Below, one piece after another: positions 4,946 through 32,228 of a stretch of DNA of 35,224 nt; the first letter of the stretch is position 1; every line of letters begins with the position of its first letter. This DNA comes from Burkholderiales bacterium. Its GTDB lineage: Bacteria; Pseudomonadota; Gammaproteobacteria; Burkholderiales; SG8-41. The stretch spans positions 1 to 35,224 of the forward strand of contig JBKJPI010000236.1 of assembly GCA_046595235.1 (NCBI GenBank). The letters are read 5' to 3'. The position numbers and the translations under genes are program-made. The notes beneath the pieces were generated by a model, which was given only the letters and a program-made list of their open reading frames with translations, had not been told where the DNA came from and ran no database searches.

Positions 4946-5344
4946 GTGCAGCAGTTGAGCGCACGCGTCGTGCGCGCCGTCACAATCGGACTCGTTCTCA
5001 CGCTCACAGCGTGTGCATTGGCGGTGCCCGCGTTTGCGAGGACGAGCCCGGGTCAGGAGTTACCCCATGCAGCCGGCATTGCGTTTTCGGCCTTGCCCGT
5101 GGAAGCGCAGCGCACTGCGCGTCTCGTTCGCGAGGGTGGCCCCTTCCCTTACGAGCGGGACGGCGTCGTCTTTGGTAACTTCGAGCGACTGCTGCCCAGG
5201 CGCGAGCGCGGCTACTACCGCGAGTACACGGTTCCGACTCCGGGGGTGAAGCACCGCGGCGCGCGCCGGCTGGTGGCAGGTCGCGGGGGCGAGCTCTATT
5301 ACACCAGCGATCATTACGCGAGCTTCAGCCGAGTCAGAGAATGA
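4946..5344 (+). CDS. Secreted guanyl-specific ribonuclease (RNase Sa/N1/T1-barnase superfamily)
   Basis: GYYREYTVPTPGVKHRGARRLVAG...LYYTSDHYASFSRV closely mirrors the RNase Sa catalytic core. N-terminal signal peptide (VRAVTIGLVLTLTACALAVPAFA). GTG 4946 lies just after the aspS stop. The upstream part of the 184-aa ORF overlaps aspS and is rejected. Confidence 0.85.
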   Translation: MQQLSARVVRAVTIGLVLTLTACALAVPAFARTSPGQELPHAAGIAFSALPVEAQRTARLVREGGPFPYERDGVVFGNFERLLPRRERGYYREYTVPTPGVKHRGARRLVAGRGGELYYTSDHYASFSRVRE

Positions 5345-5754: not shown

Positions 5755-6239
5755 CCGCGCCGCTGTACAAAGTCCCCATATCGGTGCTGGTCCTGGTGCA
5801 TACGAGCGACCTGCACGTGCTGCTGATGGAACGCGCCGATCGTCCCGGTTTCTGGCAGTCCGTCACCGGAAGCCAGAACGCCGGTGAAACACTCGGGCAG
5901 ACGGCGACACGTGAGCTCTACGAAGAGACCGGTCTGGATGCTGCGCGTTACGGCCTTGTCGACTGGCAGAAGCAGAACATTTTCGAGATCTATCCGCACT
6001 GGCGCTACCGCTATGCGCCTGGAGTCACGCACAACACCGAAAACGTCTTTGCCGTGGAGCTTCCGGAGCGCGTCTCAATCACGCTTGCGCCGCGCGAGCA
6101 CCTGGCGTACGAGTGGCTGCCGTGGCAAGCGGCTGCCGGGAAGGCCTTCTCGTGGACCAACGCTGAAGTCATTCGCGAGCTCCCTTCGAGGGCGCGATCA
6201 TCGTCGAGCGCTGCGCCTGCGGCGGCCGGGGGAACTTAA
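5751..6239 (+). CDS. nudB: NUDIX hydrolase, dihydroneopterin triphosphate diphosphatase-like
   Basis: Nudix box GETLGQTATRELYEETGL and an N-terminus (KVPISVLVLVHT) typical of NudB. ATGA overlap with the barstar stop. The aspS...nudB synteny is common in betaproteobacteria. Confidence 0.8.
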   Translation: MTAPLYKVPISVLVLVHTSDLHVLLMERADRPGFWQSVTGSQNAGETLGQTATRELYEETGLDAARYGLVDWQKQNIFEIYPHWRYRYAPGVTHNTENVFAVELPERVSITLAPREHLAYEWLPWQAAAGKAFSWTNAEVIRELPSRARSSSSAAPAAAGGT

Positions 6240-6396
6240 GGGTATTTGCGGGGGTCGCATTGCGTGCGAAAGCGCTCGCACGAGGCGTCCCTGACATGCG
6301 TCGTGACACGGCCTTTTGGCGGTGGGCCGCACGGTGGATTTTTTGCAGCATTATGGTAGTGTTGGGCGTTAGCTTGCTTCGGTATCGGGGACGAGA

Positions 6397-7494
6397 ATGG
6401 AAGTCAGCACGATCACCTTTGACCGTTTCAAACCGCTCGCGGACGACGCGTGCGAAGCCCGTATCGTCGAAGCAAAGCGTGCGCTCGGCGGGCGCGCGGT
6501 CATTCTCGGGCATCACTACCAGCGCGCCGATGTGTACAGGCACGCCGACCTCACGGGCGACTCGCTGAGACTCGCGAAGCTCGCCTCCCAGACAGATGCC
6601 GAGTACATCGTGTTCTGCGGCGTGCATTTCATGGCGGAAGTCGCGGACATTCTTTCGAAGCCACACCAGAAAGCAATTCTTCCGGATCTGTCGGCGGGGT
6701 GCTCGATGGCCGACATGGCGAATCTTGCGAAAGTGGACCGGGCGTGGCGCGAGCTCGGCGAAGTTCTTGATCCGGACGAGAAGGTCACTCCAGTCACCTA
6801 CATCAACTCGGCCGCCGACCTGAAGGCTTTCTGCGGCGAGCATGGCGGCATCGTGTGCACGTCGACGAACGCACGCGAAATCCTTCAATGGTCGCTTGCA
6901 CGTCGTGAAAAGGTCCTGTTCTTCCCCGACCAGCACCTTGGACGCTGGACCGGCTATCTCATGGACATCCCGCTTTGCGAAATGCTCGTGTGGGACCCCG
7001 ATGAGCCTATGGGAGGCCTCACCGCACAGCAGATCAAGATGGCGAAAGTCCTGCTGTGGAAAGGCCACTGCTCGGTTCACCAGATGTTTCAGGCGCAGCA
7101 CGTGCTCCGCTGGCGCCAGCAGAATCCGAGCGGCATGGTCATCAGCCACCCTGAGTGCAACTTCGAGGTGTGCAAGCTCTCCGATTACGTCGGATCGACC
7201 GACTTCATCATCAAAACCATTGCCAACAGCGCGCCGGGCACGCGCTGGCTCGTCGGAACCGAGCTCAATCTCGTCAATCGCATTGCTGAGGAATACAGGC
7301 CGCAAGGCAAGGTCGTCCAGTTCATGGCGCCGACCGTGTGCATGTGCTCGACCATGGCGCGAATTGATCCGCAGCATCTCGCCTGGAGCCTGGAAAACCT
7401 CGTTGACGGCAATGTGGTGAACCAGATCAAGGTTCCGGAACAAGAAGCCGGGCTCGCACGCATCGCGCTCGATCGGATGCTCGCTGTCTCCTGA
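6397..7494 (+). CDS. nadA: Quinolinate synthase NadA
   Basis: 365 aa. GHHYQ, FCGVHFMAE and conserved Cys residues (CSMA, CSVH, CxC) fit NadA. Confidence 0.9.
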   Translation: MEVSTITFDRFKPLADDACEARIVEAKRALGGRAVILGHHYQRADVYRHADLTGDSLRLAKLASQTDAEYIVFCGVHFMAEVADILSKPHQKAILPDLSAGCSMADMANLAKVDRAWRELGEVLDPDEKVTPVTYINSAADLKAFCGEHGGIVCTSTNAREILQWSLARREKVLFFPDQHLGRWTGYLMDIPLCEMLVWDPDEPMGGLTAQQIKMAKVLLWKGHCSVHQMFQAQHVLRWRQQNPSGMVISHPECNFEVCKLSDYVGSTDFIIKTIANSAPGTRWLVGTELNLVNRIAEEYRPQGKVVQFMAPTVCMCSTMARIDPQHLAWSLENLVDGNVVNQIKVPEQEAGLARIALDRMLAVS

Positions 7495-7557
7495 AGCGGC
7501 GGGGTGTGCGGATGCGCACGTCCTGGCGCCCCTCCGAGTTCCTGACGTGCAGCCATC

Positions 7558-8319
7558 GTGACGCGCCGCCTGCACGTCGTCACCTACAACATCCACAAGG
7601 GGCTGTCGCTCTTCAACCGGCGGCTCGTGATCCACGAGTTACGCGACAGGCTGCGGCAGCTCGGCGCCGACATCGTCTTCCTTCAGGAAGTGCAGGGCAC
7701 ACACGACGGCAACGCCGCCCTGCACGGCGAGGACTGGCCGATCGAGCCGCAGTACGAGTTTCTCGCGGACGAAGTGTGGGGCGACTTCGCGTATGGACGT
7801 AACGCAGTCTACGACCATGGGCACCACGGCAACGCGATCCTCTCGCGTTTTCCCATTCAGTATTGGGACAACCAGGACGTTTCTGCGCATCGGTTCGAAA
7901 AGCGCGGGCTGCTTCACTGCGAAGTCGCCATACCGGGCTGGGACGTGCCGCTGCACTGCGTGTGCGTCCACCTTGCGTTGACCTCACGAGGGCGAAGCCG
8001 CCAGATTGAACGCCTGCGTCAAAGGATCGAGCGCGTGGTGCCGGCCAATGCCCCGCTCATCGTCGCCGGCGATTTCAACGACTGGCACTGGCGGCACAAG
8101 GCGACTCAGGAGCTGGCGCATCCGCTCAACATGCAGGAGGTCTTCGAGCTGATCCGCGGCCTCCCTGCGCGCAGCTTTCCCGCCATGCTCCCGGTATTCA
8201 GGCTCGATCGCATATACGTGCGCGGGTTTCGGGTGAGCCGCGCTCACGTGCACCACGGGCCCGTCTGGGGCCGCATCTCCGACCACGCCGCACTGGCGAC
8301 TACGATCGAGCGCTTGTAA
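7558..8319 (+). CDS. Endonuclease/exonuclease/phosphatase (EEP) family protein
   Basis: TYNIHKG, FLQEV, GDFND and SDH motifs of the EEP fold. GTG start. Confidence 0.85.
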   Translation: MTRRLHVVTYNIHKGLSLFNRRLVIHELRDRLRQLGADIVFLQEVQGTHDGNAALHGEDWPIEPQYEFLADEVWGDFAYGRNAVYDHGHHGNAILSRFPIQYWDNQDVSAHRFEKRGLLHCEVAIPGWDVPLHCVCVHLALTSRGRSRQIERLRQRIERVVPANAPLIVAGDFNDWHWRHKATQELAHPLNMQEVFELIRGLPARSFPAMLPVFRLDRIYVRGFRVSRAHVHHGPVWGRISDHAALATTIERL

Positions 8320-16052: not shown

Positions 16053-16084
16053 AAAAAAAAGCGCCCACTAGGGGCGCTTTTTTA
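16053..16084. terminator. Bidirectional rho-independent terminator between the convergent MFS and lipoprotein genes
   Basis: A8, then GCGCCC-ACTAG-GGGCGC, then T7. Confidence 0.7.
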
Positions 16085-23151: not shown

Positions 23152-23246
23152 TGGCGGAAGAGAGTGGGAGTCGAACCCACGCAGGACCGCCTGCGGCCCC
23201 TACCGGGTTTGAAGTCCGGCCGCCCCACCGGGAGCGATTCCCTTCC
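23152..23246 (-). tRNA. selC: tRNA-Sec (anticodon UCA), genomically encoded CCA
   Basis: The minus strand reads GGAAGGGAATCGCTCCCGGTGGGGCGGCCGGACTTCAAACCCGGTAGGGGCCGCAGGCGGTCCTGCGTGGGTTCGACTCCCACTCTCTTCCGCCA. It has an 8-bp acceptor stem, a 6-bp D stem with a 4-nt loop, anticodon loop CUUCAAA, a long variable arm and a 5-bp T stem (GTGGG/CCCAC, loop TTCGACT). This 8/5 architecture is the hallmark of bacterial tRNA-Sec. It is adjacent to selA and selB. Confidence 0.9.
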
Positions 23247-23356
23247 AGGAGGTAACACTATTTATTACGAACAGATCTGCTGCGCACTTCCGATCCTGGC
23301 TTCAGACCGGAAGCATTCTCATTCTAATCGCCGCTACGCGATTCGTGGCGCAGATT

Positions 23357-24271
23357 TCATTTTTTGAGCCGGGCAACGACGGCGGCAGCTGCTGCACGGG
23401 CTTCGTTCATCGCCTCGGTCAGCGTTCCACCGTACCCGCTGCGCACTGCGCCGATGGCTGAAACATTGGGCATGGCTGTTTGGAACGAATCATCGGTTCG
23501 GACGAACCCGGCAGCGTCACGATCGATGGTGGATGGCAGGAATGCCGTGTTTGGTTCCAGCCCGATGTAGGCGAAGACCCCTGCGCAGGGAAGCTCTTCG
23601 GTACGGCCGTCTGCGTGGCGCACGCGCGCTTTCTCGACCATTTTGGAGCCGAGGATCGATTCGAGGGTTGCATTAAGCACGAGGGATATCTTGTCGTTTA
23701 CCCTGACCCGTTCCACCCAGTGATCTACAGCGCGGAACGTTTCGCTGCGATGCACGAGATGCACGCCGCTGCAGTATTGAGCGAGCACGAGGGCTTCCTG
23801 GAAAGCCGAGTCGCCACCGCCGATGACAATCACTTCTTCGTTCTGGAACATGGGGCCGTCGCAATCCGCGCATTGCGATACGCCGCGACCTTCGAACTCG
23901 GATTCCCCAGGGATGCCAAGCTTTCTCAGGCTGCCGCCGGAGGCGACCACGATATGCCGCGCGCTATAAGCCGCTGAAGCCGCGACTGCCTCGACGAGCA
24001 GGCCGCTTTGACGCACCGCTGTTACCGGTTCCTGAATACTCTCGACGCCGTGTTCGGCATTAGCCTGCATCATTTCAGCTGCGAGCTCCGCACCGGACGC
24101 TGGCAAACCCGCCGGCGCAGGTTCGAGCTCGTTCACGTTGATAACGAGCCCGCCGAAAAGTTGCGCCTCCATCGTGGTGACCTTGAGCCCGGCCTGCGCC
24201 AGCGCGCCCGCAGCAGTGAGACCGCTCACCCCTTCGCCAATCACGATTACGTCGTACGTCGGTTGCGACAC
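23357..24271 (-). CDS. Thioredoxin-reductase-like NAD(P)/FAD-dependent oxidoreductase (redox-active CADC)
   Basis: FAD GxGxxG (VIGEGVSG), redox motif SQCADCDG (versus CATCDG in TrxB), NAD(P)H site VIGGGDSAFQEA and HRSETFRA. GTG start 12 nt after the selB stop, with GGGGAA as RBS. Confidence 0.85.
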   Translation of the reverse strand: MSQPTYDVIVIGEGVSGLTAAGALAQAGLKVTTMEAQLFGGLVINVNELEPAPAGLPASGAELAAEMMQANAEHGVESIQEPVTAVRQSGLLVEAVAASAAYSARHIVVASGGSLRKLGIPGESEFEGRGVSQCADCDGPMFQNEEVIVIGGGDSAFQEALVLAQYCSGVHLVHRSETFRAVDHWVERVRVNDKISLVLNATLESILGSKMVEKARVRHADGRTEELPCAGVFAYIGLEPNTAFLPSTIDRDAAGFVRTDDSFQTAMPNVSAIGAVRSGYGGTLTEAMNEARAAAAAVVARLKK

Positions 24272-24283
24272 GTCCGTGTTCCC

Positions 24284-26290
24284 CTATCTTCTGTAGTTGT
24301 GCACCGGCCGACGCTGTGTGGCGGGTTTAGGCGCCGGCTGCGGCGCCGCTGCTCTCGGCGGCGGGGGCGGTGCAGTTGCGGGCCCGAGGATGGGAACGAA
24401 GTCTTTGCGCATCTTCCGTGCATCGCCGACGCGTTGTGTAATACCGAGGCCATCAAGAAATTCGAGAATTTCGATGGCCAGGCTGCGGCCGACGCCTGTC
24501 GCGTCACGATATTGCGCTGCTGTGAACTGGCCATTCACCTGCGCCTGGGCCGTGGCCTGTGCGATCGCAGCAAGAATGGCGAGCGTCGTACGCGCGTAAA
24601 AACGGTCAGGCGTGACGCGCATGACTTCGCCGGTCTTGGCTTTTCGATAGAGGAAGTCCTTGAGCACGGCCTCCTTCAACTTCACCTGAAGAGCGAGATC
24701 ACGCACCGGCGGGGGGTTGAAAGCCAGCGCTTCGAGGACAGGCCGTACTGCTTGCCAGAGACGCTCGTCAGCGTCATTCGCAGTCGCGTTGTGACCGGGC
24801 AGACGTGCTGTCGACCCCCCGGTTTCAATTCTGCGAGCATCCGTGAGTCGCCTCAGCACGCTTGCGAATGCATCGCCGCCGAGATCCGAAGCGACAGCGG
24901 CGCGCAGCGTCTCCACCTCTTCTCCCGCCGCTTGCGGTTGACGTCGATGAAAATCAGCGAGCTGTTCGAGAACTGCCGTCTCAATGCCCTGATGGCGAGT
25001 GTGCGTGATCGCAACGCTCGCGTCCTTGCCAAGCTGCACGAGGTTCAGCGCTTCATAGAGTTTTACTGCGGTTCCGCCCTCGAGGTTGTATGCCAGCTCG
25101 AAGTGCTTCAGATCTATTGGACGTCCGGTCGCCTCGAGAGCCGCGAGGGCATCTGCGGGTGAGTCGAGCTCGAGCGCTGCCAGCTCGCCCAGGCGCGCAG
25201 GCGTGCTGCGGCGCGTTGCCGGCGCCAACGGATCGAGAACGAATCCCCCGCCCAGGGTCCGCGTGGCTGATTGATCACGGACGATGAAACGATCGCCGCG
25301 CAGGGCGCCGATGGGCTGATCGAGAACGATCTGAACGACTGCGCTCGCGCCCGGAGCCACTGAGTCGCCCCTGCGCGTCGCGATCCGTCCCGTTACGTCG
25401 CTCGTTGCAAGGTGCAGGTGGATCGGGGTCCAATGCTCGAGCGCCTGCGGTTCGGTGTTTAGAACCTTGATGCGCGCGTCGAAGCGCCGCGTCGGCCGGT
25501 GGATCGCTTCGGCGACCACCCAGTCCCCGCGCCGCATCGACTCGAGCCCGCTGCCCGTGAGATTGAGTGCGCAACGCTCGCCGGCTGCAGCGCGATCAGC
25601 GGGCTTCCCCTGAATTTGAAGCCCTCGCACGCGAACGGGCGTTCCCGCCGGAGAGAGCACGAGCTTGTCGCCGGTCGCAACGGCGCCGTTGAAGACGGTG
25701 CCGGTTACAACGGTACCGCTGCCGGACATGCTGAAGGTGCGGTCTACTGCGTACCGAAAGTGTTGCCCAGTCGAGCGCCGGGCCGCTTGACCAGCCGCTT
25801 CCGAAAAGAGCAACGTCCGCAGTCGATCAATTCCTGCCCCAGTGATCGCAGACACCGGCATGACCGGGGCGCCTGCAAGGCTCGTCCCCTCGAGCAGCGC
25901 TGCGACGCTTCGCTCCACCTCACGCATGCGGATCTCGTCGACGCGATCGATCTTCGTGATCACCGCGGCGGCGCGGGAGACGTGCAGGAGATCGAGAATG
26001 TGCAGATGTTCGATCGTCTGCGGCATTACCCCGTCATCGGCCGCGACGACGAGGAGGGCGAAGTCTATTCCGCAGACGCCGGCCAGCATGTTGCGGATGA
26101 ATCGTTCGTGTCCCGGCACATCCACAAAACCGAGAAGGCCGCCGGCAGGGAGCGGGAGGTATGCGAATCCGAGGTCGATCGAAATGCCGCGGGCTTTCTC
26201 TTCGGGAAGACGGTCTGTATCAACGCCGGTCAGCGTTTTCACGAGGAGCGTCTTGCCGTGATCGATGTGGCCTGCGGTTGCGACGATCAT
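24284..26290 (-). CDS. selB: Selenocysteine-specific translation elongation factor SelB
   Basis: GTPase motifs (ATAGHIDHGKT, DVPGHERF, TKID), EF-Tu-like domains II/III and winged-helix C-terminal domains. Pro/Ala-rich tail. ATGA overlap with selA. Confidence 0.92.
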   Translation of the reverse strand: MIVATAGHIDHGKTLLVKTLTGVDTDRLPEEKARGISIDLGFAYLPLPAGGLLGFVDVPGHERFIRNMLAGVCGIDFALLVVAADDGVMPQTIEHLHILDLLHVSRAAAVITKIDRVDEIRMREVERSVAALLEGTSLAGAPVMPVSAITGAGIDRLRTLLFSEAAGQAARRSTGQHFRYAVDRTFSMSGSGTVVTGTVFNGAVATGDKLVLSPAGTPVRVRGLQIQGKPADRAAAGERCALNLTGSGLESMRRGDWVVAEAIHRPTRRFDARIKVLNTEPQALEHWTPIHLHLATSDVTGRIATRRGDSVAPGASAVVQIVLDQPIGALRGDRFIVRDQSATRTLGGGFVLDPLAPATRRSTPARLGELAALELDSPADALAALEATGRPIDLKHFELAYNLEGGTAVKLYEALNLVQLGKDASVAITHTRHQGIETAVLEQLADFHRRQPQAAGEEVETLRAAVASDLGGDAFASVLRRLTDARRIETGGSTARLPGHNATANDADERLWQAVRPVLEALAFNPPPVRDLALQVKLKEAVLKDFLYRKAKTGEVMRVTPDRFYARTTLAILAAIAQATAQAQVNGQFTAAQYRDATGVGRSLAIEILEFLDGLGITQRVGDARKMRKDFVPILGPATAPPPPPRAAAPQPAPKPATQRRPVHNYRR

Positions 26291-27735
26291 GAGATCAACT
26301 TGAGCTGCGCGAGCTGTCCGACAAAAGCCATTTCGTCGTCTAGACAGCGCAAGTCCAACAAGAAGGCATCAGCCTTGATGCGTCCGATCACCGGAACCGG
26401 CAGCGCGCGAAAAGCCTCGGCGATGCGTCGGGCGGCAGAGCCTTTACTCTTTCCAGTGCCTTCCACCGCGATCGCCGCGCTGGGCAGAGAGTCCACCGGT
26501 AAGGAGCCGCTTCCGATCTGGCTCGCGCACGCCTCCACGCGCGCATGAGCCCTCTCACCCACTGCTGCGGAAACATGACCCAGGAGACGCTGCGCCTGCT
26601 GTTCGATCTCGTCGACCGGCCGCGTGAGAAAGCGCAATGTCGGCAACTCTTGTCTGAGGCGTGCAGGGTTCAGGTACAACTGCAGAACCGCGTCGAGTGC
26701 GGCGAGCGTCATCTTGTCGACCCGCAGCGCACGCTTCATCGGATTTTTTCGAATGCGTGTAACGAGCTCTTTACGGCCAACGATCAGACCCGCCTGTGGC
26801 CCACCGAGAAGCTTGTCTCCGCTGAAGGTCACGATGTCGGCGCCACTTGTGAGCGTCTGCGCAGGGGTGGGCTCGTGCGGAAGGCCGTATTCCTCGAGAT
26901 CTACAAGCATGCCGCTTCCGAGATCCACGATGAGCGGAAGGTGATGCTCGTGAGCAAGTCGGGCGAGATCAGCTTCGGCCACGGCGGCGGTGAAGCCGTG
27001 AATAGCATAATTGCTTGTGTGCACCTTCATGATCGCCGCCGTGCGTGGACCGATGGCTGCTGCGTAATCGTCGAGGTGCGTGCGATTCGTCGTGCCGACT
27101 TCGCGCAGCTTGCAGCCGGCGCGCGCCATGATGTCAGGAATACGGAACGCGCCGCCGATTTCGATCAGCTCTCCGCGCGAAACGACGACCTCCTTGCGCA
27201 CGGCAAGCGTGTTCAGTGCGAGGTAAACGGCGGCCGCGTTGTTATTGACGACGGCTGCTGCCTCGCCACCGGTCAAACGCGTGAGCCAGCGCTCGATGTG
27301 CGAATCGCGCTCTCCGCGTGCAGCGCCTTCGAGATCGAATTCAAGGTTCACAGGCCGCGTCATTGCCTGCATCACCGCTTCTGCCGCGCATTGCGGCATC
27401 AGTGCGCGGCCGAGATTCGTGTGAAGGACGGTACCAGTAAGGTTGTAGACCGATTTGAGTGAAGGCCGCGTGTCGTGTGCGAGCTGTGCCGCGCACATGT
27501 CGAGGAAAACTTCGAGGTCGAACACGTTTGACCCCGTTGCGTCTGCCAATACGCTGCGCCGGGCATCCAGTTGCGCCCGCAGGATCTGAATCACGTGCGG
27601 CCTTCCGTATTGGCCGATCAGTGCGTCAACGCGTGAGTCGTTGAGGAGCTTGTCGATCGAAGGGAGCGCGCGACGCGCGGCAGAGCTGGTGCTCAGCACG
27701 GCGGTGCGGGAAGAGCAGTGAGGACGAATGCGCAT
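26287..27735 (-). CDS. selA: L-seryl-tRNA(Sec) selenium transferase SelA
   Basis: LPSIDKLL.. N-terminus and a PLP-enzyme core with FSGDKLLGGPQAG (PLP lysine), typical of SelA. Confidence 0.92.
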   Translation of the reverse strand: MRIRPHCSSRTAVLSTSSAARRALPSIDKLLNDSRVDALIGQYGRPHVIQILRAQLDARRSVLADATGSNVFDLEVFLDMCAAQLAHDTRPSLKSVYNLTGTVLHTNLGRALMPQCAAEAVMQAMTRPVNLEFDLEGAARGERDSHIERWLTRLTGGEAAAVVNNNAAAVYLALNTLAVRKEVVVSRGELIEIGGAFRIPDIMARAGCKLREVGTTNRTHLDDYAAAIGPRTAAIMKVHTSNYAIHGFTAAVAEADLARLAHEHHLPLIVDLGSGMLVDLEEYGLPHEPTPAQTLTSGADIVTFSGDKLLGGPQAGLIVGRKELVTRIRKNPMKRALRVDKMTLAALDAVLQLYLNPARLRQELPTLRFLTRPVDEIEQQAQRLLGHVSAAVGERAHARVEACASQIGSGSLPVDSLPSAAIAVEGTGKSKGSAARRIAEAFRALPVPVIGRIKADAFLLDLRCLDDEMAFVGQLAQLKLIS

Positions 27736-27860
27736 GCCGAGAAGGCGCGCGATTGAACCGGCATAAACGGATTCGCAAGGCCGAGCGTAAGGCCGGCTAG
27801 TTTAGCCTAAACTGTCTGCGCGACGCATCGCGCTTGCCATCGCCCCACGGCGAACGCGAC

Positions 27861-27890
27861 AAAAAAGCCGCGCGTTGCGCGGCCTTTTTT
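27861..27890. terminator. Rho-independent, bidirectional-looking terminator between the selenoprotein gene and selA
   Basis: A6, then GCCGCGC-GTT-GCGCGGC, then C T6. On the minus strand it follows the stop at 27902 by about 12 nt. Confidence 0.65.
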
Positions 27891-27901
27891 ACGAGCTCGG
27901 G

Positions 27902-28675
27902 TTACTCGAAAAGTCGCTCCGGCAGTGGCAGTCCGGCGATTTCCTCGGCCGTGAGGCGTCGCTTCGGCTCCACGCCATAGCGCTCCAGCACGTGCGCGAG
28001 CTGACGTGCGTGCTGAGCCGAATGCCACGTCGAACGTTCGAGTACAGCGTGCATCGGCTGGGGCCCGTAGAACGTCGGAAGTGCTCGCGTACACGACTTG
28101 TCGTCGAGCCCCGCCCACCATTTTTCCAAACGGGCGGTGACCTCATCCCCGTAACGCGCGATGTCCGTGCCCGTCATGAACGTGCCGTCCTTCGGCGGCA
28201 CATTCGCAAGCTGGATCGCATATTCCACGCCGTCGGTCACGGTTTCGAGAAACGCTTCGCCGATGCGGAACACATGGTGCGCGAGAAGGCGAATCGCGCG
28301 ATCGCGATTTGGGATTACGCGTTCGTTGATTTTGTCGTCGGGTATCTGGCGGACGAGTCCTTGCGCAACACGCAGGACGTTGATCCACTTTACGATGAGC
28401 TCATCAGGTGGAAGCGGCGTGTGGCCCGTGCCCTGAAGACCGACAAACTCTGCAACGTCTTCGAGATTCTGGCCGAAGACGTAGCTCTCGCCTTTTGAAA
28501 CCACGGGGACGTTGCGCACGCCGAGCTTGAGCAGACGCTCGCGGCCGCCAGCGTCGTTGAGCACGTCGACGATATCGTAGTCGATGCCTTTACGCGAAAG
28601 AAACTCTTTCGCCCGGAGACAGCTGCTTCAGCCAGGCTGCGTGAAAAGCGTGAATCTGTCGGTGATCGCGTTCAT
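27902..28675 (-). CDS. Candidate selenoprotein: glutaredoxin-like (U-S-S-C) domain fused to a DinB/YfiT-like domain. In-frame TGA (28630-28628) read as Sec at codon 16
   Basis: Hand translation from ATG 28675 (AGGA RBS 7 nt upstream) gives MNAITDRFTLFTQPG-TGA-SSCLRAKEFLSRKGIDYDIVDV, which runs in frame into the ORF-track ORF 27902..28564 (LNDAGGRERLLKLGVRNVPVVSKGESYVFG...). This is a Grx fold pattern: beta1, CxxC position, helix, beta2, cis-Pro VP, GxxxxG. The C-terminal about 170 aa carry DinB-like His motifs (LLAHHVFR.., ERSTWHSAQHARQL). Total 257 codons plus stop. Confidence 0.75.
28594..28612 (-). promoter_or_regulatory. Candidate bacterial SECIS hairpin downstream of the in-frame UGA
   Basis: The mRNA reads GCGAAAGA-GUU-UCUUUCGC: an 8-bp perfect stem with a G/U-containing apical loop, starting 15 nt after the UGA. 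Confidence 0.55.
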
Positions 28676-28749
28676 AAATTCATCCTGCGGGTGAGGTGAG
28701 CTCGGAGGCTACTCCTCGCTTTGTTCGGGCGTCAAGGCAACGCACCCGA

Positions 28750-29946
28750 TCAGATCGAACCGGGCGTTACCGAACCGGGTGGGCATGCAGCAGGCGCCGC
28801 GCTCGGCACTTCGGACCGCGCGGATTCGATGATGCCGCCGCCCAGGCACACGCGGCTTTCGTACACCACCACGGACTGCCCAGGGGTCACGGCCCACTGC
28901 GCTTCCGCGAACTCGACGGTGCAGCCGTCAGCATCGACCGACACGAGTGTGCACGGCGCATCTTTCTGTCTGTAGCGCGTCTTCGCGCCATACACCCAGT
29001 GGCATGGCGGCCGGGTGCCGCTGACCCAGCTCAACTTCATTGCAGTCAGCCGGCTCGAGTAAAGCGCGCGATTCTCGCGCCCCTGCACGACGAGGAGGCG
29101 GTTGCGTTTCAGATCCTTGTCGACGACATACCATGCATCGCCATCGCCATTGACCTGCCCGCCGATCCGTAAGCCCTGGCGCTGTCCCAGCGTGTAGAAC
29201 ATGAGTCCCATGTGTTCCCCGACGAGTCGGCCGTCGAGCGAATAGATATGCCCCGGGTCGGCGGGGAGGTAACGGTTCAGAAACTCGCGGAACGGGCGCT
29301 CGCCGATGAAACAGATCCCCGTCGAGTCCTTCTTGTCGTGATTGGGGAGCGCTGCGCGCCTGGCGATTTCCCGCACCTCGCGCTTATATAAAGCACCGAT
29401 GGGAAAGATCGTTTTTGCAAGCTGTTGCTGATCGAGTCTGTAGAGGAAATAGCTTTGATCTTTCGAGCCGTCTTCCGCTTTGAGTAGCTGATGCAGGCCG
29501 TCGACTTCGCGCAACTGCGCATAGTGACCGGTTGCAATGTAGTCAGCACCGAGCGTTAGCGCATGATCGAGAAAGGCGCGAAACTTGATCTCTGCATTGC
29601 AGAGGACATCGGGGTTCGGAGTGCGGCCCGCCTGATATTCGGCGAGGAACTCGGTGAATACCCTGTCTTTGTACTCCGCGGAGAAATTTACCGCCTCGAT
29701 TTCTATATCGAGGGCAGTGGCGGCGGCGACAGCGTCAATGAGATCCGTGCGGGAGCTGCAGTAATCATCAGTGTCATCGTCCTCCCAATTCTTCATGAAG
29801 AGCCCGATGACATCATGTCCCGCTTCCTTGAGCAGGAGAGCGGCCACCGATGAGTCGACGCCCCCGGACATACCGACGACGATGCGTTTGCGTGGTTTTA
29901 TGGCGATGACGAGTGGGGATCTACAGTCGGCGGTGGGGAGCCCCAC
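28750..29946 (-). CDS. mnmA: tRNA 2-thiouridine(34) synthase MnmA
   Basis: PP-loop [11 protein letters not shown], the DYCS Cys, KDQSYFL and C-terminal GGGII. GTG start, exact position uncertain. Confidence 0.9.
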
Positions 29947-30851: not shown

Positions 30852-32228
30852 ATGACTGAACGACTCGATCTTCTGAAGATCGCGCAGGAAGAACAGAGCG
30901 GTGACCTCTTCAAGCTGCTTGACACCATATACAAGCGGTCGAAAGTGCAACCCAGCGGGATTTCCGACGCGGTCATCTGGGAAGGCGGAAGCGCCTCGGG
31001 CAACGTGAAGCCCGTAGCTCACGCATTTACCGACATGTTCGCGCTGAACGGCACCATCATGGCGCTCGACGTTCTGGGTCTGCCTTTCCTCGCGGTGCCG
31101 ATGATGGCGCAGTACCGCCACGATACGAAGCTTGCTTCGCTGGACTGGTTCGGCAAGCTCGACGCGACCGCGATCAAGTGGTCGACCGCCGGTGACGCAA
31201 TGGTCAACGACAACGGCAAGAAAGTCGTCGTGATGGGTAAGTCGGCAAACGCGCCGCTGCGCACCGCCGCCGGCGTCTACTGCAACGTGAGGCCGTACGG
31301 CGGCATCACGAACGTGCGCTTCATGCCCGGTCTTCCTTATTCTCAGGACAACAAGAAATTCAAGGTCGAGCGCGAGACCGGAAACATCCACTCCGAGATG
31401 AACACGCCCGGCATTCGCATGGCCTATGCCGCGCGGTTGTTCCTGAAGCTGGTGAACGATACGGGGCACATCGGGCGCATTGCGACAAAGCCTACGCAGG
31501 CAAAGGAAGATGCGGTAAACGCTGGCATCATGCGCTGGCTGCTCCAGGGCACGAAGTTCAAGCTAGGACGCAAGTATGTGGTCGACGCCTACCAAGAGCA
31601 CCGTGAAAACGTCGACGCGATCGTCTCGTTGCTGCCGAAAGACTTCAAAGCGGGCATGGAAAGCTGGGGCGGCGAAGTTCACGAGCACATCTCGGATACG
31701 AACTTCGGTCTGCTGCTGCACGACATGATCAACCAGCGTCCGGCAATCATCTATGCGACCGACCTTGATGGCGATCGCCTGACCGACCTCATGGCGGATG
31801 CGCCCGACGTGCTGCGCGCGTGGGGGCAGCTCGTGCTTGACCACGTCAAGGCCGGCACCGATATGAAGAAGGTGTGGAAGGACATGGGCTTCACCATGAC
31901 CAATGGCAAGGACATGACAAGCGTCATGTACCGTATTCATGGCGCGCCTATTTTCGAGCAGACGCTCGGTTCTGCTGATGCGATGCTGCTTCGCCTGCTG
32001 GACGGCGACGAGACGGTTGGCGGTGAGAAGCAGCCGTACGACCCGCGCATTCACTTCGTGCTGATCAACGAAGCTTACAAGGCCGCGAATCCGGGGAACA
32101 CTCAGCTTGCCGGCTGGCTCGATGCGCAGCTTCAGACGTTCGACAAGATTTACAGCAGTCAGCGCCCGCGCTACCTCGACGGCTACAGCAAACTGAAGGA
32201 CGCGATCAAACCGTGGGGCATGAAATAA
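30852..32228 (+). CDS. Hypothetical soluble protein, 458 aa, family not recognised
   Basis: Long ORF with protein-like, Lys/Asp-rich balanced composition. The antisense 252-aa ORF is Arg/His-rich junk. A strong terminator follows. No motifs I can assign. Confidence 0.75.
   Translation: MTERLDLLKIAQEEQSGDLFKLLDTIYKRSKVQPSGISDAVIWEGGSASGNVKPVAHAFTDMFALNGTIMALDVLGLPFLAVPMMAQYRHDTKLASLDWFGKLDATAIKWSTAGDAMVNDNGKKVVVMGKSANAPLRTAAGVYCNVRPYGGITNVRFMPGLPYSQDNKKFKVERETGNIHSEMNTPGIRMAYAARLFLKLVNDTGHIGRIATKPTQAKEDAVNAGIMRWLLQGTKFKLGRKYVVDAYQEHRENVDAIVSLLPKDFKAGMESWGGEVHEHISDTNFGLLLHDMINQRPAIIYATDLDGDRLTDLMADAPDVLRAWGQLVLDHVKAGTDMKKVWKDMGFTMTNGKDMTSVMYRIHGAPIFEQTLGSADAMLLRLLDGDETVGGEKQPYDPRIHFVLINEAYKAANPGNTQLAGWLDAQLQTFDKIYSSQRPRYLDGYSKLKDAIKPWGMK

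What the first reader, a model, noticed from the sequence alone, without database searches (positions are those of the whole stretch)
28575..28630. SECIS-like hairpin 15 nt downstream of the candidate Sec codon
The mRNA after the UGA reads AGCAGCUGUCUCCGG, then GCGAAAGA-GUU-UCUUUCGC. That is an 8-bp perfect stem (28612-28605 pairing with 28601-28594) capped by a small G/U-containing loop. The loop G is about 27 nt from the U of UGA. Bacterial SECIS elements are coding-region stem-loops shortly after the UGA with an exposed G(U) in the apical loop that SelB binds. The spacing here is a few nt longer than in E. coli fdhF but within the range used by bacterial SECIS models. The hairpin is built from codons A-K-E-F-L-S-R, so codon choice appears to serve both the protein and the RNA structure.
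Basis: seen in the sequence. Interest (0 to 1): 0.7.

Follow-up and report, generated by a model that had tools for sequence, protein, structure and literature searches.

The report
Selenocysteine insertion hairpin in glutaredoxin-DinB gene
The small RNA hairpin just after an in-frame UGA codon is almost certainly the signal that makes the ribosome insert selenocysteine there; it is an ordinary kind of bacterial signal, but it sits in a widespread glutaredoxin-DinB fusion gene that databases annotate as a truncated protein.

Summary
On the minus strand, UGA lies at 28630-28628. A 15-nt spacer follows, then GCGAAAGA-GUU-UCUUUCGC at 28612-28594.

The SECIS reading is well supported.
- All 80 genome orthologues keep the TGA. 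They also keep an identical 17-nt core, CGAAAGAGUUUCUUUCG.
- Of 142 conserved degenerate codon columns, only six use a single codon in every sequence. Those six are the consecutive hairpin codons.
- Across unique sequences of the wider family, 104 of 121 Sec forms can form all seven core pairs. None of 42 Cys forms can, although they encode the same K-E-F-L.
- Fifteen Sec forms lack this hairpin. They carry a second 6-7 bp hairpin with a GUG loop 14 nt further downstream, and it shows compensatory changes.
- The element meets every criterion of the published bacterial SECIS model.
- selA, selB, a thioredoxin-reductase-like gene and tRNA-Sec lie directly downstream.

Three corrections apply. 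The conserved stem is 7 bp, not 8. No lower stem is conserved. Covariation cannot be scored in this hairpin because it barely varies.

This is a new member of a known kind of element. The host glutaredoxin-DinB selenoprotein is absent from a 2026 catalogue of 119 families, and no NCBIfam model reaches its cut-off.

The parts
28628..28630 (-). In-frame UGA, codon 16 of the gene. It is the candidate selenocysteine codon in the motif FTQPG-U-SSC (a glutaredoxin-type UxxC).
   Evidence: TGA is present at this position in all 80 genome loci. It aligns with Cys in QPGCSSC homologues.
28613..28627 (-). 15-nt spacer AGCAGCUGUCUCCGG between the UGA and the 8-bp stem. It is 16 nt to the conserved 7-bp stem. 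Its length is fixed but its synonymous sites vary freely.
28595..28611 (-). Conserved 17-nt SECIS core CGAAAGA-GUU-UCUUUCG: a 7-bp stem with a G-U-U apical loop.
   Evidence: Identical in the window and all 80 genome loci and in divergent Sec forms of 43-53% identity. The RNAalifold consensus is exactly this hairpin.
28602..28604 (-). Apical loop G27 U28 U29, the presumed SelB contact. If the closing A-U pair opens, the loop is the pentaloop A-GUU-U.
   Evidence: Loop GTT in 81 of 81. Variants L093 and L159 have UUU->UUC, which gives the pentaloop AGUUC. Requirement for a loop G followed by G or U: PMC13188914.
28594..28612 (-). The full 8-bp hairpin as it stands in this window. The outer G19-C37 pair is not universally conserved.
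   Evidence: -8.6 kcal/mol. Outer pair present in 56 of 81.
27902..28675 (-). Host gene of 257 codons: an N-terminal glutaredoxin domain with UxxC fused to a DinB_2 domain.
   Evidence: PF00462 E=6.6e-13; PF12867 E=5.3e-5, 24.1 bits, just under the 24.8 gathering score. Database homologues are truncated at the TGA.
26287..27735 (-). selA, L-seryl-tRNA(Sec) selenium transferase.
   Evidence: TIGR00474, 596 bits.
24284..26290 (-). selB, the Sec-specific elongation factor, with C-terminal winged-helix mRNA-binding domains.
   Evidence: TIGR00475, 443 bits. (SelB-wing_3 at residues 584-626; SelB_WH_2nd_bact at 506-565).
23357..24271 (-). Thioredoxin-reductase-like flavoprotein with a CADC motif, conserved downstream of selB.
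   Evidence: Synteny.
23152..23246 (-). tRNA-Sec (selC), anticodon UCA.
   Evidence: ARAGORN. (Rfam RF01852, 75.8 bits).

Best explanation
The hairpin is the bacterial SECIS element of a glutaredoxin-DinB selenoprotein gene.

Proposed mechanism: as the ribosome approaches UGA (28630-28628), the mRNA 16-32 nt downstream folds into a 7-8 bp stem capped by G-U-U. The C-terminal winged-helix domain of the SelB encoded 2 kb downstream binds the exposed G-U of that loop. SelB carries GTP and Sec-tRNA(Sec), which is made by the adjacent selA and selC. Binding tethers this complex at the A site, so UGA is read as selenocysteine rather than stop. The product has a U-S-S-C redox centre.

Shown here:
- The UGA and the hairpin are conserved.
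- Selection acts at the nucleotide level and is confined to the hairpin.
- The hairpin is absent from Cys homologues.
- It fits the SECIS model.
- The Sec machinery is present next to the gene.

Inferred, not shown: SelB binding, actual Sec insertion, and which loop nucleotides are contacted.
For: 1. TGA plus an identical 17-nt core occurs in the window and all 80 genome loci, at a fixed distance. These genes are 66-98% identical pairwise at the nucleotide level, and third positions average 56% identity.

2. Of 142 conserved degenerate codon columns, only six use a single codon in every sequence. They are the consecutive codons 22-27 (GCG AAA GAG TTT CTT TCG). Mean codon entropy elsewhere is 1.11 bits. 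TTT and CTT are minority codons in these genes, at 17% and 7.5%.

3. Sec versus Cys contrast among unique sequences: 104 of 121 Sec forms form all seven core pairs, against 0 of 42 Cys forms (Fisher 1.6e-25, not corrected for phylogeny). Mean local MFE is -8.8 versus -2.4 kcal/mol. Cys forms encode K-E-F-L mostly as AAG GAA TTC CTG, and residue 27 is never Ser.

4. The only substitutions seen inside the hairpin are structure-tolerant. One is A24G, which gives a G.U pair. Two are U30C, which opens the loop-closing pair to give AGUUC.

5. The 15 Sec forms without this hairpin have another one at nt 34-50. It has a G-U-G loop, G.U pairs and two compensatory double changes. It is absent from Cys forms and from forms that carry the window's hairpin.

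6. All criteria of the consensus bacterial SECIS model are met: loop of 3 nt (allowed 3-9), stem of 7-8 bp (4-16), G then U at the start of the loop, spacing of 23 nt (16-37), MFE -8.6 to -10.3 kcal/mol (limit -7.5).

7. selA, selB with SelB-wing domains, and tRNA-Sec lie directly downstream. The order mnmA, this gene, selA, selB, TrxR-like is conserved in the loci.
Against: - There is no direct evidence of SelB binding or Sec incorporation.
- The hairpin is nearly invariant, so compensatory covariation, the usual proof of RNA structure, is absent for it (0 pairs with changes on both sides).
- Taken alone, a perfect 8-bp hairpin is not rare in this GC-rich window, and the 56-nt span has z -1.4.
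- In 25 of 81 orthologues the eighth pair is missing. Several metagenome Sec forms with only the 7-bp core fold locally at about -6.3 to -6.6 kcal/mol, weaker than the model's -7.5 cut-off.
- It differs from the E. coli fdhF archetype. It has no bulged U, and the 17-nt stem-loop starts 16 nt after UGA rather than 11 nt.
- No Rfam family matches.
- The Sec and Cys sequences are phylogenetically clustered, so the Fisher test overstates independence.
Confidence: 0.88

Rival explanations
1. The hairpin is a functional RNA structure with a role other than SelB recruitment. It might be a generic read-through or pausing stimulator, an mRNA-stability or RNase element, or a SelB-binding site that mainly regulates expression of the downstream selA-selB genes.
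For: Nucleotide-level selection proves function but not which function. The gene sits directly upstream of selA-selB. The AAA->AAG change would keep pairing as G.U, yet it appears once in 106 unique hairpin-bearing sequences. That hints at constraint beyond simple pairing.
Against: The hairpin occurs only in UGA forms and never in Cys forms of the same protein. Its loop, spacing and size match the SECIS model. A second clade replaced it with another GU-loop hairpin that is also downstream of the UGA. In several loci other genes, such as TctC, separate this gene from selA, yet the hairpin is unchanged.
Confidence: 0.06
2. The inverted repeat acts at the DNA level, as an operator or other protein-binding palindrome that happens to lie inside the coding region.
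For: The window's hairpin uses only Watson-Crick pairs, so it is equally a DNA palindrome. Sequence invariance rather than covariation is typical of protein-binding sites.
Against: It is tied to the TGA codon, being present in Sec forms and absent in Cys forms. Variant L093 keeps the stem through a G.U pair, which works only as sense-strand RNA. The substitute hairpin in the other clade has a G.U pair in 14 of 15 sequences, so it is not a DNA palindrome. There is only one copy per locus and no second half-site or promoter context.
Confidence: 0.02
3. The hairpin is a by-product of a conserved amino-acid motif (A-K-E-F-L-S) and chance codon choice. The TGA is a real stop or an assembly or pseudogene artefact.
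For: K-E-F-L is conserved across the whole family, Cys forms included. Perfect 8-bp hairpins occur about 8 times per 35 kb by chance.
Against: Given the amino acids and the genes' own codon usage, this codon series has probability about 5e-4 in one sequence. It recurs, intact or nearly so, in 106 of 121 unique Sec sequences. Cys forms with the same residues never form it. The reading frame and residues upstream of the TGA (F-x-L-F-T-Q-P-G) are conserved and preceded by a start codon in independent assemblies.
Confidence: 0.01

Closest known systems
Consensus bacterial SECIS (the bSECISearch model of Zhang and Gladyshev, as summarised in PMC13188914)
   Same: It is a coding-region stem-loop just downstream of the Sec-UGA. 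It has a small apical loop (3 nt), a 7-8 bp upper stem, and G followed by U at the start of the loop. With the closing A-U pair it fits the pattern N1-G-[G|U]-N-N2. Spacing is 23 nt and MFE is below -7.5 kcal/mol in the window.
   Different: It is unusually invariant in sequence. The same 17 nt persist from about 40% to 92% protein identity. No lower stem is conserved. Some metagenome Sec forms with only the 7-bp core fold at about -6.3 kcal/mol, weaker than the model's energy cut-off.
E. coli fdhF SECIS (17-nt minimal upper stem-loop, nt 15-31, with U17 bulge and G23/U24 loop)
   Same: The functional core is also 17 nt. A G-U dinucleotide is exposed in the apical loop. It lies within the reading frame shortly after the UGA (for the E. 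coli description).
   Different: The core starts 16 nt after the UGA instead of 11 nt, so the loop G is nt 27 instead of nt 23. It has no bulged U. Its loop is a triloop GUU (or a pentaloop) rather than the loop of the fdhF element. The stem is A/U-rich.
Sec-containing glutaredoxin (PF00462, UxxC), listed among verified selenoprotein families
   Same: The host protein's N-terminal domain is a glutaredoxin with U-x-x-C at the usual CxxC position.
   Different: Here the Grx domain is fused to a roughly 170-residue DinB_2 domain. The gene is syntenic with selA, selB and tRNA-Sec. No NCBIfam selenoprotein model reaches its cut-off; the best are TIGR02196 at 43 bits against 88.6, and Uxx_star at 38 against 66. 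The fusion is not among the 119 families in PMC13188914.

Membership tests
Bacterial SECIS (consensus model, PMC13188914) | Lies in the coding sequence directly downstream of an in-frame UGA that aligns with Cys in homologues | tested here: met
   UGA at codon 16. Homologues have QPGCSSC at this position.
Bacterial SECIS (consensus model, PMC13188914) | Apical loop of 3-9 nt on an upper stem of 4-16 bp | tested here: met
   Loop of 3 nt (GUU). Stem of 8 bp in the window and 7 bp conserved.
Bacterial SECIS (consensus model, PMC13188914) | G in one of the first two loop positions, usually followed by G or U | tested here: met
   Loop G27-U28-U29 is invariant in 81 of 81.
Bacterial SECIS (consensus model, PMC13188914) | 16-37 nt between the UGA and the apical loop | tested here: met
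   23 nt (nt 4-26), constant in all orthologues.
Bacterial SECIS (consensus model, PMC13188914) | MFE of -7.5 kcal/mol or lower | tested here: met
   -8.6 kcal/mol for 19 nt and -10.3 for 25 nt in the window. Some metagenome Sec forms with only the 7-bp core give about -6.3 to -6.6, so the criterion is met here but is borderline for part of the family.
Bacterial SECIS (functional definition) | Conserved in Sec-containing orthologues and absent from Cys-containing homologues | tested here: met
   All seven core pairs form in 104 of 121 Sec forms against 0 of 42 Cys forms. The remaining Sec forms have a 6-pair variant or the alternative hairpin.
Bacterial SECIS (functional definition) | Base pairing maintained through compensatory changes | tested here: inconclusive
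   The window's hairpin is nearly invariant. It shows 0 double changes, 1 G.U change and 2 loop-opening changes. Every pair involves at least one non-synonymous codon position, so double changes would alter the protein (my reading of the codons). The alternative hairpin in the other clade does show 2 compensatory pairs.
Bacterial SECIS (functional definition) | Sec-decoding machinery (selA, selB, selC) present in the same genome | tested here: met
   All three lie within 5.5 kb downstream. SelB has its winged-helix RNA-binding domains. selD was not seen in the window.
Bacterial SECIS (functional definition) | Binds SelB and directs Sec insertion at the UGA | not testable with these tools
   Needs a gel shift or ITC, 75Se labelling, a reporter assay or mass spectrometry.
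E. coli fdhF-type SECIS | Bulged U on the 5' side of the upper stem, and a stem-loop that starts 11 nt after the UGA | tested here: not met
   The stem is perfect with no bulge, and the core starts 16 nt after the UGA. E. coli description from PMC8659212.
Rfam RNA families | Match to a curated covariance model | tested here: not met
   Only tRNA-Sec reaches a gathering score in the window. Around the hairpin, only chance miRNA hits appear at E of 1.7 or above.

The most novel reading that the evidence does not exclude
The glutaredoxin-DinB fusion may be an uncatalogued selenoprotein family. It may be the main, or only, client of the adjacent selA-selB-selC cluster in a large group of uncultured Burkholderiales. 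Its SECIS would then be a lineage-specific class: a bulge-free 7-bp stem with a G-U-N triloop, and a 17-nt sequence frozen across about 40-92% protein identity. That degree of freezing implies sequence-specific SelB recognition, or a second role such as control of the sel genes, beyond the generic requirement for a GU loop. The element has also moved 14 nt downstream in one clade of the same family.
Probability: 0.3. Interest if true: 0.65.

Novelty: new member of a known kind. Interest (0 to 1): 0.45.

Why it matters
The hairpin confirms that the UGA is a selenocysteine codon. Thousands of database entries called 'DinB family protein' or 'hypothetical protein' of 220-238 residues are therefore truncated versions of a roughly 257-residue selenoprotein with a U-x-x-C glutaredoxin domain.

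The family offers a clean natural experiment on how a SECIS constrains a coding sequence:
- The same K-E-F-L residues occur with and without the structure.
- One residue, Ser27, is imposed by the RNA.
- Two alternative SECIS positions exist within one protein family.

It also shows that part of the family falls below the energy cut-off of the standard SECIS search model. That may explain why the family is missing from current catalogues. The SECIS mechanism itself is textbook.

Tried and rejected
- Rfam search at gathering thresholds over the whole window, and at E up to 10 around the hairpin. Nothing but tRNA-Sec and chance miRNA hits.
- Covariation analysis of the window's hairpin. It is uninformative because the core is nearly invariant.
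- The longer structure RNAfold draws in the window (GUCU/AGGC lower stem and a G-U pair). I rejected it because those pairs form in 0-78% of orthologues with no pattern, apart from two trivially conserved U-A/U-G columns.
- A possible pairing between the third base of codon 21 and codon 28. The bases are G-G or A-A, so they do not pair. The apparent correlation is clade structure.
- Other copies of the 17-mer. There are none in the window with up to 2 mismatches, and exactly one per locus.
- Literature searches for a DinB-containing selenoprotein returned nothing relevant. The BSepDB family table is not held as text. I could not tell whether the 'Grx-like' GOS family of PMC2398784 includes this protein. 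One matching contig has an AACY accession prefix, which I believe marks GOS/Sargasso Sea data.
The part after the UGA was used instead.
- Single-sequence statistics show the hairpin alone is not compelling.

Full report
**1. What is in the sequence**

The feature lies on the minus strand. An ORF starts at ATG 28675-28673 and runs to the stop at 27902, 257 codons in all. It has one in-frame TGA, at codon 16 (28630-28628). Around that codon the protein reads FTQPG-U-SSCLRAKEFLSRKG.

Pfam finds a glutaredoxin domain at residues 9-62 (E=6.6e-13). It also finds a DinB_2 domain at residues 103-226 (E=5.3e-5, 24.1 bits, just below the 24.8 gathering score).

After the UGA come 15 nt, AGCAGCUGUCUCCGG. 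The hairpin follows: GCGAAAGA (28612-28605), GUU (28604-28602), UCUUUCGC (28601-28594). With the U of UGA as nt 1, the loop G is nt 27.

**2. Is it more than chance in this one sequence?**

Only marginally.
- RNAfold gives -8.6 kcal/mol for the 19-nt hairpin (z -3.3) and -10.3 for 25 nt (z -3.5).
- The 56-nt span of the finding has z -1.4, and a 71-nt span has z -0.7.
- The window holds 13 loop/stem solutions with perfect stems of at least 8 bp and loops of 3-9 nt. Markov simulations give 8.1 +/- 3.4.

The case therefore rests on comparative evidence.

**3. Orthologues**

A protein search found 3148 homologues. The 120 best are almost all 220-238 residues long and begin after the TGA, so gene callers truncated them.

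A scan of one genome per species returned 80 loci, nearly all labelled as uncultured Betaproteobacteria or Burkholderiales MAGs.
- All 80 have TGA at the same codon, preceded by a conserved in-frame F-x-L-F-T-[QK]-P-G and a start codon.
- All 80 carry the identical 17-mer CGAAAGAGTTTCTTTCG at the same distance.
- The genes are 66-98% identical pairwise at the nucleotide level (mean 75%). Mean third-position identity is 56%.

In a codon alignment, 142 columns have a conserved amino acid with degenerate codons.
- Exactly six of them use a single codon in every sequence.
- These are the six consecutive codons 22-27, GCG AAA GAG TTT CTT TCG.
- Elsewhere the mean codon entropy is 1.11 bits.
- TTT and CTT are minority codons in these genes, at 17% and 7.5%.

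The conserved structure is a 7-bp stem (nt 20-26 with 30-36) and the loop G27-U28-U29.
- The eighth pair, G19-C37, which the window has, is present in 56 of 81 sequences.
- None of the lower-stem pairs that RNAfold draws for the window is conserved.
- RNAalifold on 28 diverse sequences returns only this 7-bp hairpin.

**4. Cys homologues as the control**

An exhaustive search of 50%-identity representatives found many full-length homologues of 248-276 residues. They have Cys at the Sec position, for example QPGCSSCLRTKEFL. Their DNA, and that of more distant Sec forms, came from look-ups and one metagenome scan.

Among unique sequences:
- 104 of 121 Sec forms can form all seven core pairs, against 0 of 42 Cys forms. 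Cys forms mostly form 2-3 pairs.
- Mean local MFE is -8.8 versus -2.4 kcal/mol.
- Fisher's test gives 1.6e-25, not corrected for relatedness.

The Cys forms encode the same K-E-F-L but mostly as AAG GAA TTC CTG. Sec forms with this hairpin use AAA (105/106), GAG (106/106), TTT (104/106) and CTT (106/106). Residue 27 is always Ser-UCG in these Sec forms and never Ser in Cys forms. Codon 22 is always xCG. The RNA therefore dictates both codon choice and some residues.

Sec forms as distant as 43-53% identity keep the identical 17-mer.

**5. Variation that does occur**

Within the hairpin I saw only three substitutions.
- A24G in L093 turns an A-U pair into G.U.
- U30C in L093 and L159 opens the loop-closing pair and gives the pentaloop AGUUC.

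Both changes are compatible with a hairpin that presents G-U. My reading of the codons is that every stem pair involves at least one non-synonymous codon position. Compensatory double changes would therefore alter the protein, which explains the lack of covariation.

**6. A second SECIS position in the same family**

Fifteen Sec forms lack the window's hairpin. Their motif is FWQPG-U-TSCLRLKEFLSVRGI. They have another hairpin at nt 34-40 and 44-50, with loop G41-U42-G43: UCGGUCC-GUG-GGAUCGA.
- It has a G.U pair in 14 of 15 sequences.
- It shows one-sided changes and, in L123, two compensatory double changes (U-A to G-C, and U-A to C-G).
- In four sequences the innermost pair is open, giving a pentaloop.
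- It is absent from Cys forms and from forms that carry the window's hairpin.

A rough NJ tree places this clade beside a small clade that has the window-type hairpin. That suggests relocation of the element, but the tree is not robust.

Both hairpins share one architecture, a 6-7 bp stem with a G-U-N loop. This is what a common SelB would be expected to recognise.

**7. Context**

Directly downstream on the same strand lie:
- selA (TIGR00474, 596 bits);
- selB (TIGR00475, 443 bits, with SelB-wing_3 and SelB_WH_2nd_bact domains);
- a thioredoxin-reductase-like gene with a CADC motif;
- tRNA-Sec.

mnmA lies upstream. The order mnmA, this gene, selA, selB, TrxR-like recurs in the loci, sometimes with a TctC-family gene or other DNA inserted.

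**8. Comparison with known SECIS elements**

The consensus bacterial model quoted in PMC13188914 requires four things:
- a loop of 3-9 nt on a stem of 4-16 bp;
- a G in the first two loop positions, usually followed by G or U;
- 16-37 nt between the UGA and the loop;
- an MFE of -7.5 kcal/mol or lower.

The window's element has a 3-nt loop, a 7-8 bp stem, G-U at the start of the loop, a 23-nt spacing and an MFE of -8.6 to -10.3 kcal/mol. It meets every criterion. Some metagenome Sec forms with only the 7-bp core fold at about -6.3 kcal/mol and would miss the energy cut-off.

The E. coli fdhF archetype has a 17-nt upper stem-loop at nt 15-31, 11 nt from the UGA, with a U17 bulge and G23/U24 in the loop (PMC8659212). 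The element here is also 17 nt, but it starts 16 nt from the UGA and has no bulge. It works like a bacterial SECIS and fits the general model, but it is not of the fdhF subtype. No Rfam model matches.

**9. Mechanism**

The part below rests on established SelB biology and is inferred for this locus. SelB, bound to GTP and Sec-tRNA(Sec), binds the exposed G-U of the apical loop through its C-terminal winged-helix domain. The complex is then positioned at the ribosomal A site when UGA arrives. Sec is inserted to give a U-S-S-C redox centre.

Shown here: conservation, nucleotide-level selection confined to the hairpin, its exclusive association with UGA forms, model fit, and presence of the machinery. 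Not shown: binding and incorporation.

**10. Rivals**

- A different RNA function. This cannot be fully excluded, but the tie to the UGA and the replacement hairpin argue for SECIS.
- A DNA palindrome. The G.U pairs in L093 and in the alternative hairpin, and the tie to the UGA, argue against it.
- Chance or amino-acid-driven codons. Searches exclude this.

**11. Novelty and score**

A bacterial SECIS is a known kind of element, and this is a new, well-supported member. The host protein deserves attention.
- No NCBIfam model reaches its cut-off.
- The fusion is not among the 119 families tabulated in PMC13188914.
- Searches for 'DinB' with 'selenoprotein' found nothing relevant.
- It may be hidden within the 'Grx-like' group of the GOS study. 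One matching contig has an AACY accession prefix, which I believe marks GOS/Sargasso Sea data.

Interest is moderate, at 0.45. The mechanism is textbook. The evidence is unusually clean, and the family appears to be systematically mis-annotated.

Noticed in passing
window 27902-28675 (-); proteins P0001-P0120: The host gene encodes a glutaredoxin(UxxC)-DinB_2 fusion. The search found 3148 homologues, and almost all of the 120 best listed are called as 220-238 aa fragments that start after the TGA. They are named 'DinB family protein', 'glutaredoxin' or 'hypothetical protein'. No NCBIfam model reaches its cut-off, and the fusion is not in the 2026 table of 119 selenoprotein families.
   Followed up: partly
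L092, L103, L106, L109, L110, L121-L123, L129, L131, L141, L143, L154, L158, L162 (nt 34-50 after the TGA): One clade of Sec forms lacks the window-type hairpin. It carries a different 6-7 bp hairpin with a G-U-G loop 14 nt further downstream, with G.U pairs and two compensatory changes in L123. The SECIS seems to have relocated within one protein family.
   Followed up: partly
window codons 22 and 27 of the gene (28610-28612 and 28595-28597, minus strand): Ser27 (UCG) and an xCG codon at position 22 occur in all Sec forms with this hairpin. Cys forms have Leu, Ile or Ala at 27 and mostly ACC at 22. The RNA structure appears to dictate amino-acid identity, not only codon choice.
   Followed up: yes
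window 23152-29946 (-) and loci L001-L080: The gene order mnmA, Grx-DinB selenoprotein, selA, selB, TrxR-like flavoprotein (CADC motif), tRNA-Sec is conserved. In many loci a TctC-family gene or other DNA lies between the selenoprotein gene and selA. The TrxR-like gene scores below the TrxR equivalog cut-off (233 against 343 bits) and might be the reductase partner of the selenoprotein.
   Followed up: partly
L086 3775-5502 (-), TGA at about 5183-5185: The contig carrying a divergent Grx-DinB Sec form also has a UGSC-family gene. It is split into two called ORFs by an in-frame TGA (GVGA-U-GAC). An 8-bp hairpin, ACGCCUGC-CGUGCU-GCGGGCGU, starts 9 nt after that TGA, with G-U at loop positions 2-3. 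This is probably a second selenoprotein read by the same SelB at a shorter spacing.
   Followed up: partly
L006, L010, L052, L060, L071, L073 (record titles): Several MAGs carrying near-identical Burkholderiales-type loci (69-76% protein identity, same synteny) are labelled Streptomycetaceae, Rhodospirillaceae or Chitinophaga pinensis. These look like mis-binned contigs or wrong taxonomic labels.
   Followed up: no
window 16055-16083: A perfect 12-bp G+C-rich palindrome is flanked by A6 and T6 (AAAAAAGCGCCCACTAGGGGCGCTTTTTT). It looks like a bidirectional intrinsic terminator between convergent genes.
   Followed up: no
window 30852-32228 (+) and 6169-7635 (-): Two long ORFs of 458 and 488 aa have no Pfam hit at E up to 1e-5. 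The 6169-7635 ORF overlaps long ORFs on the opposite strand and may not be a real gene.
   Followed up: no
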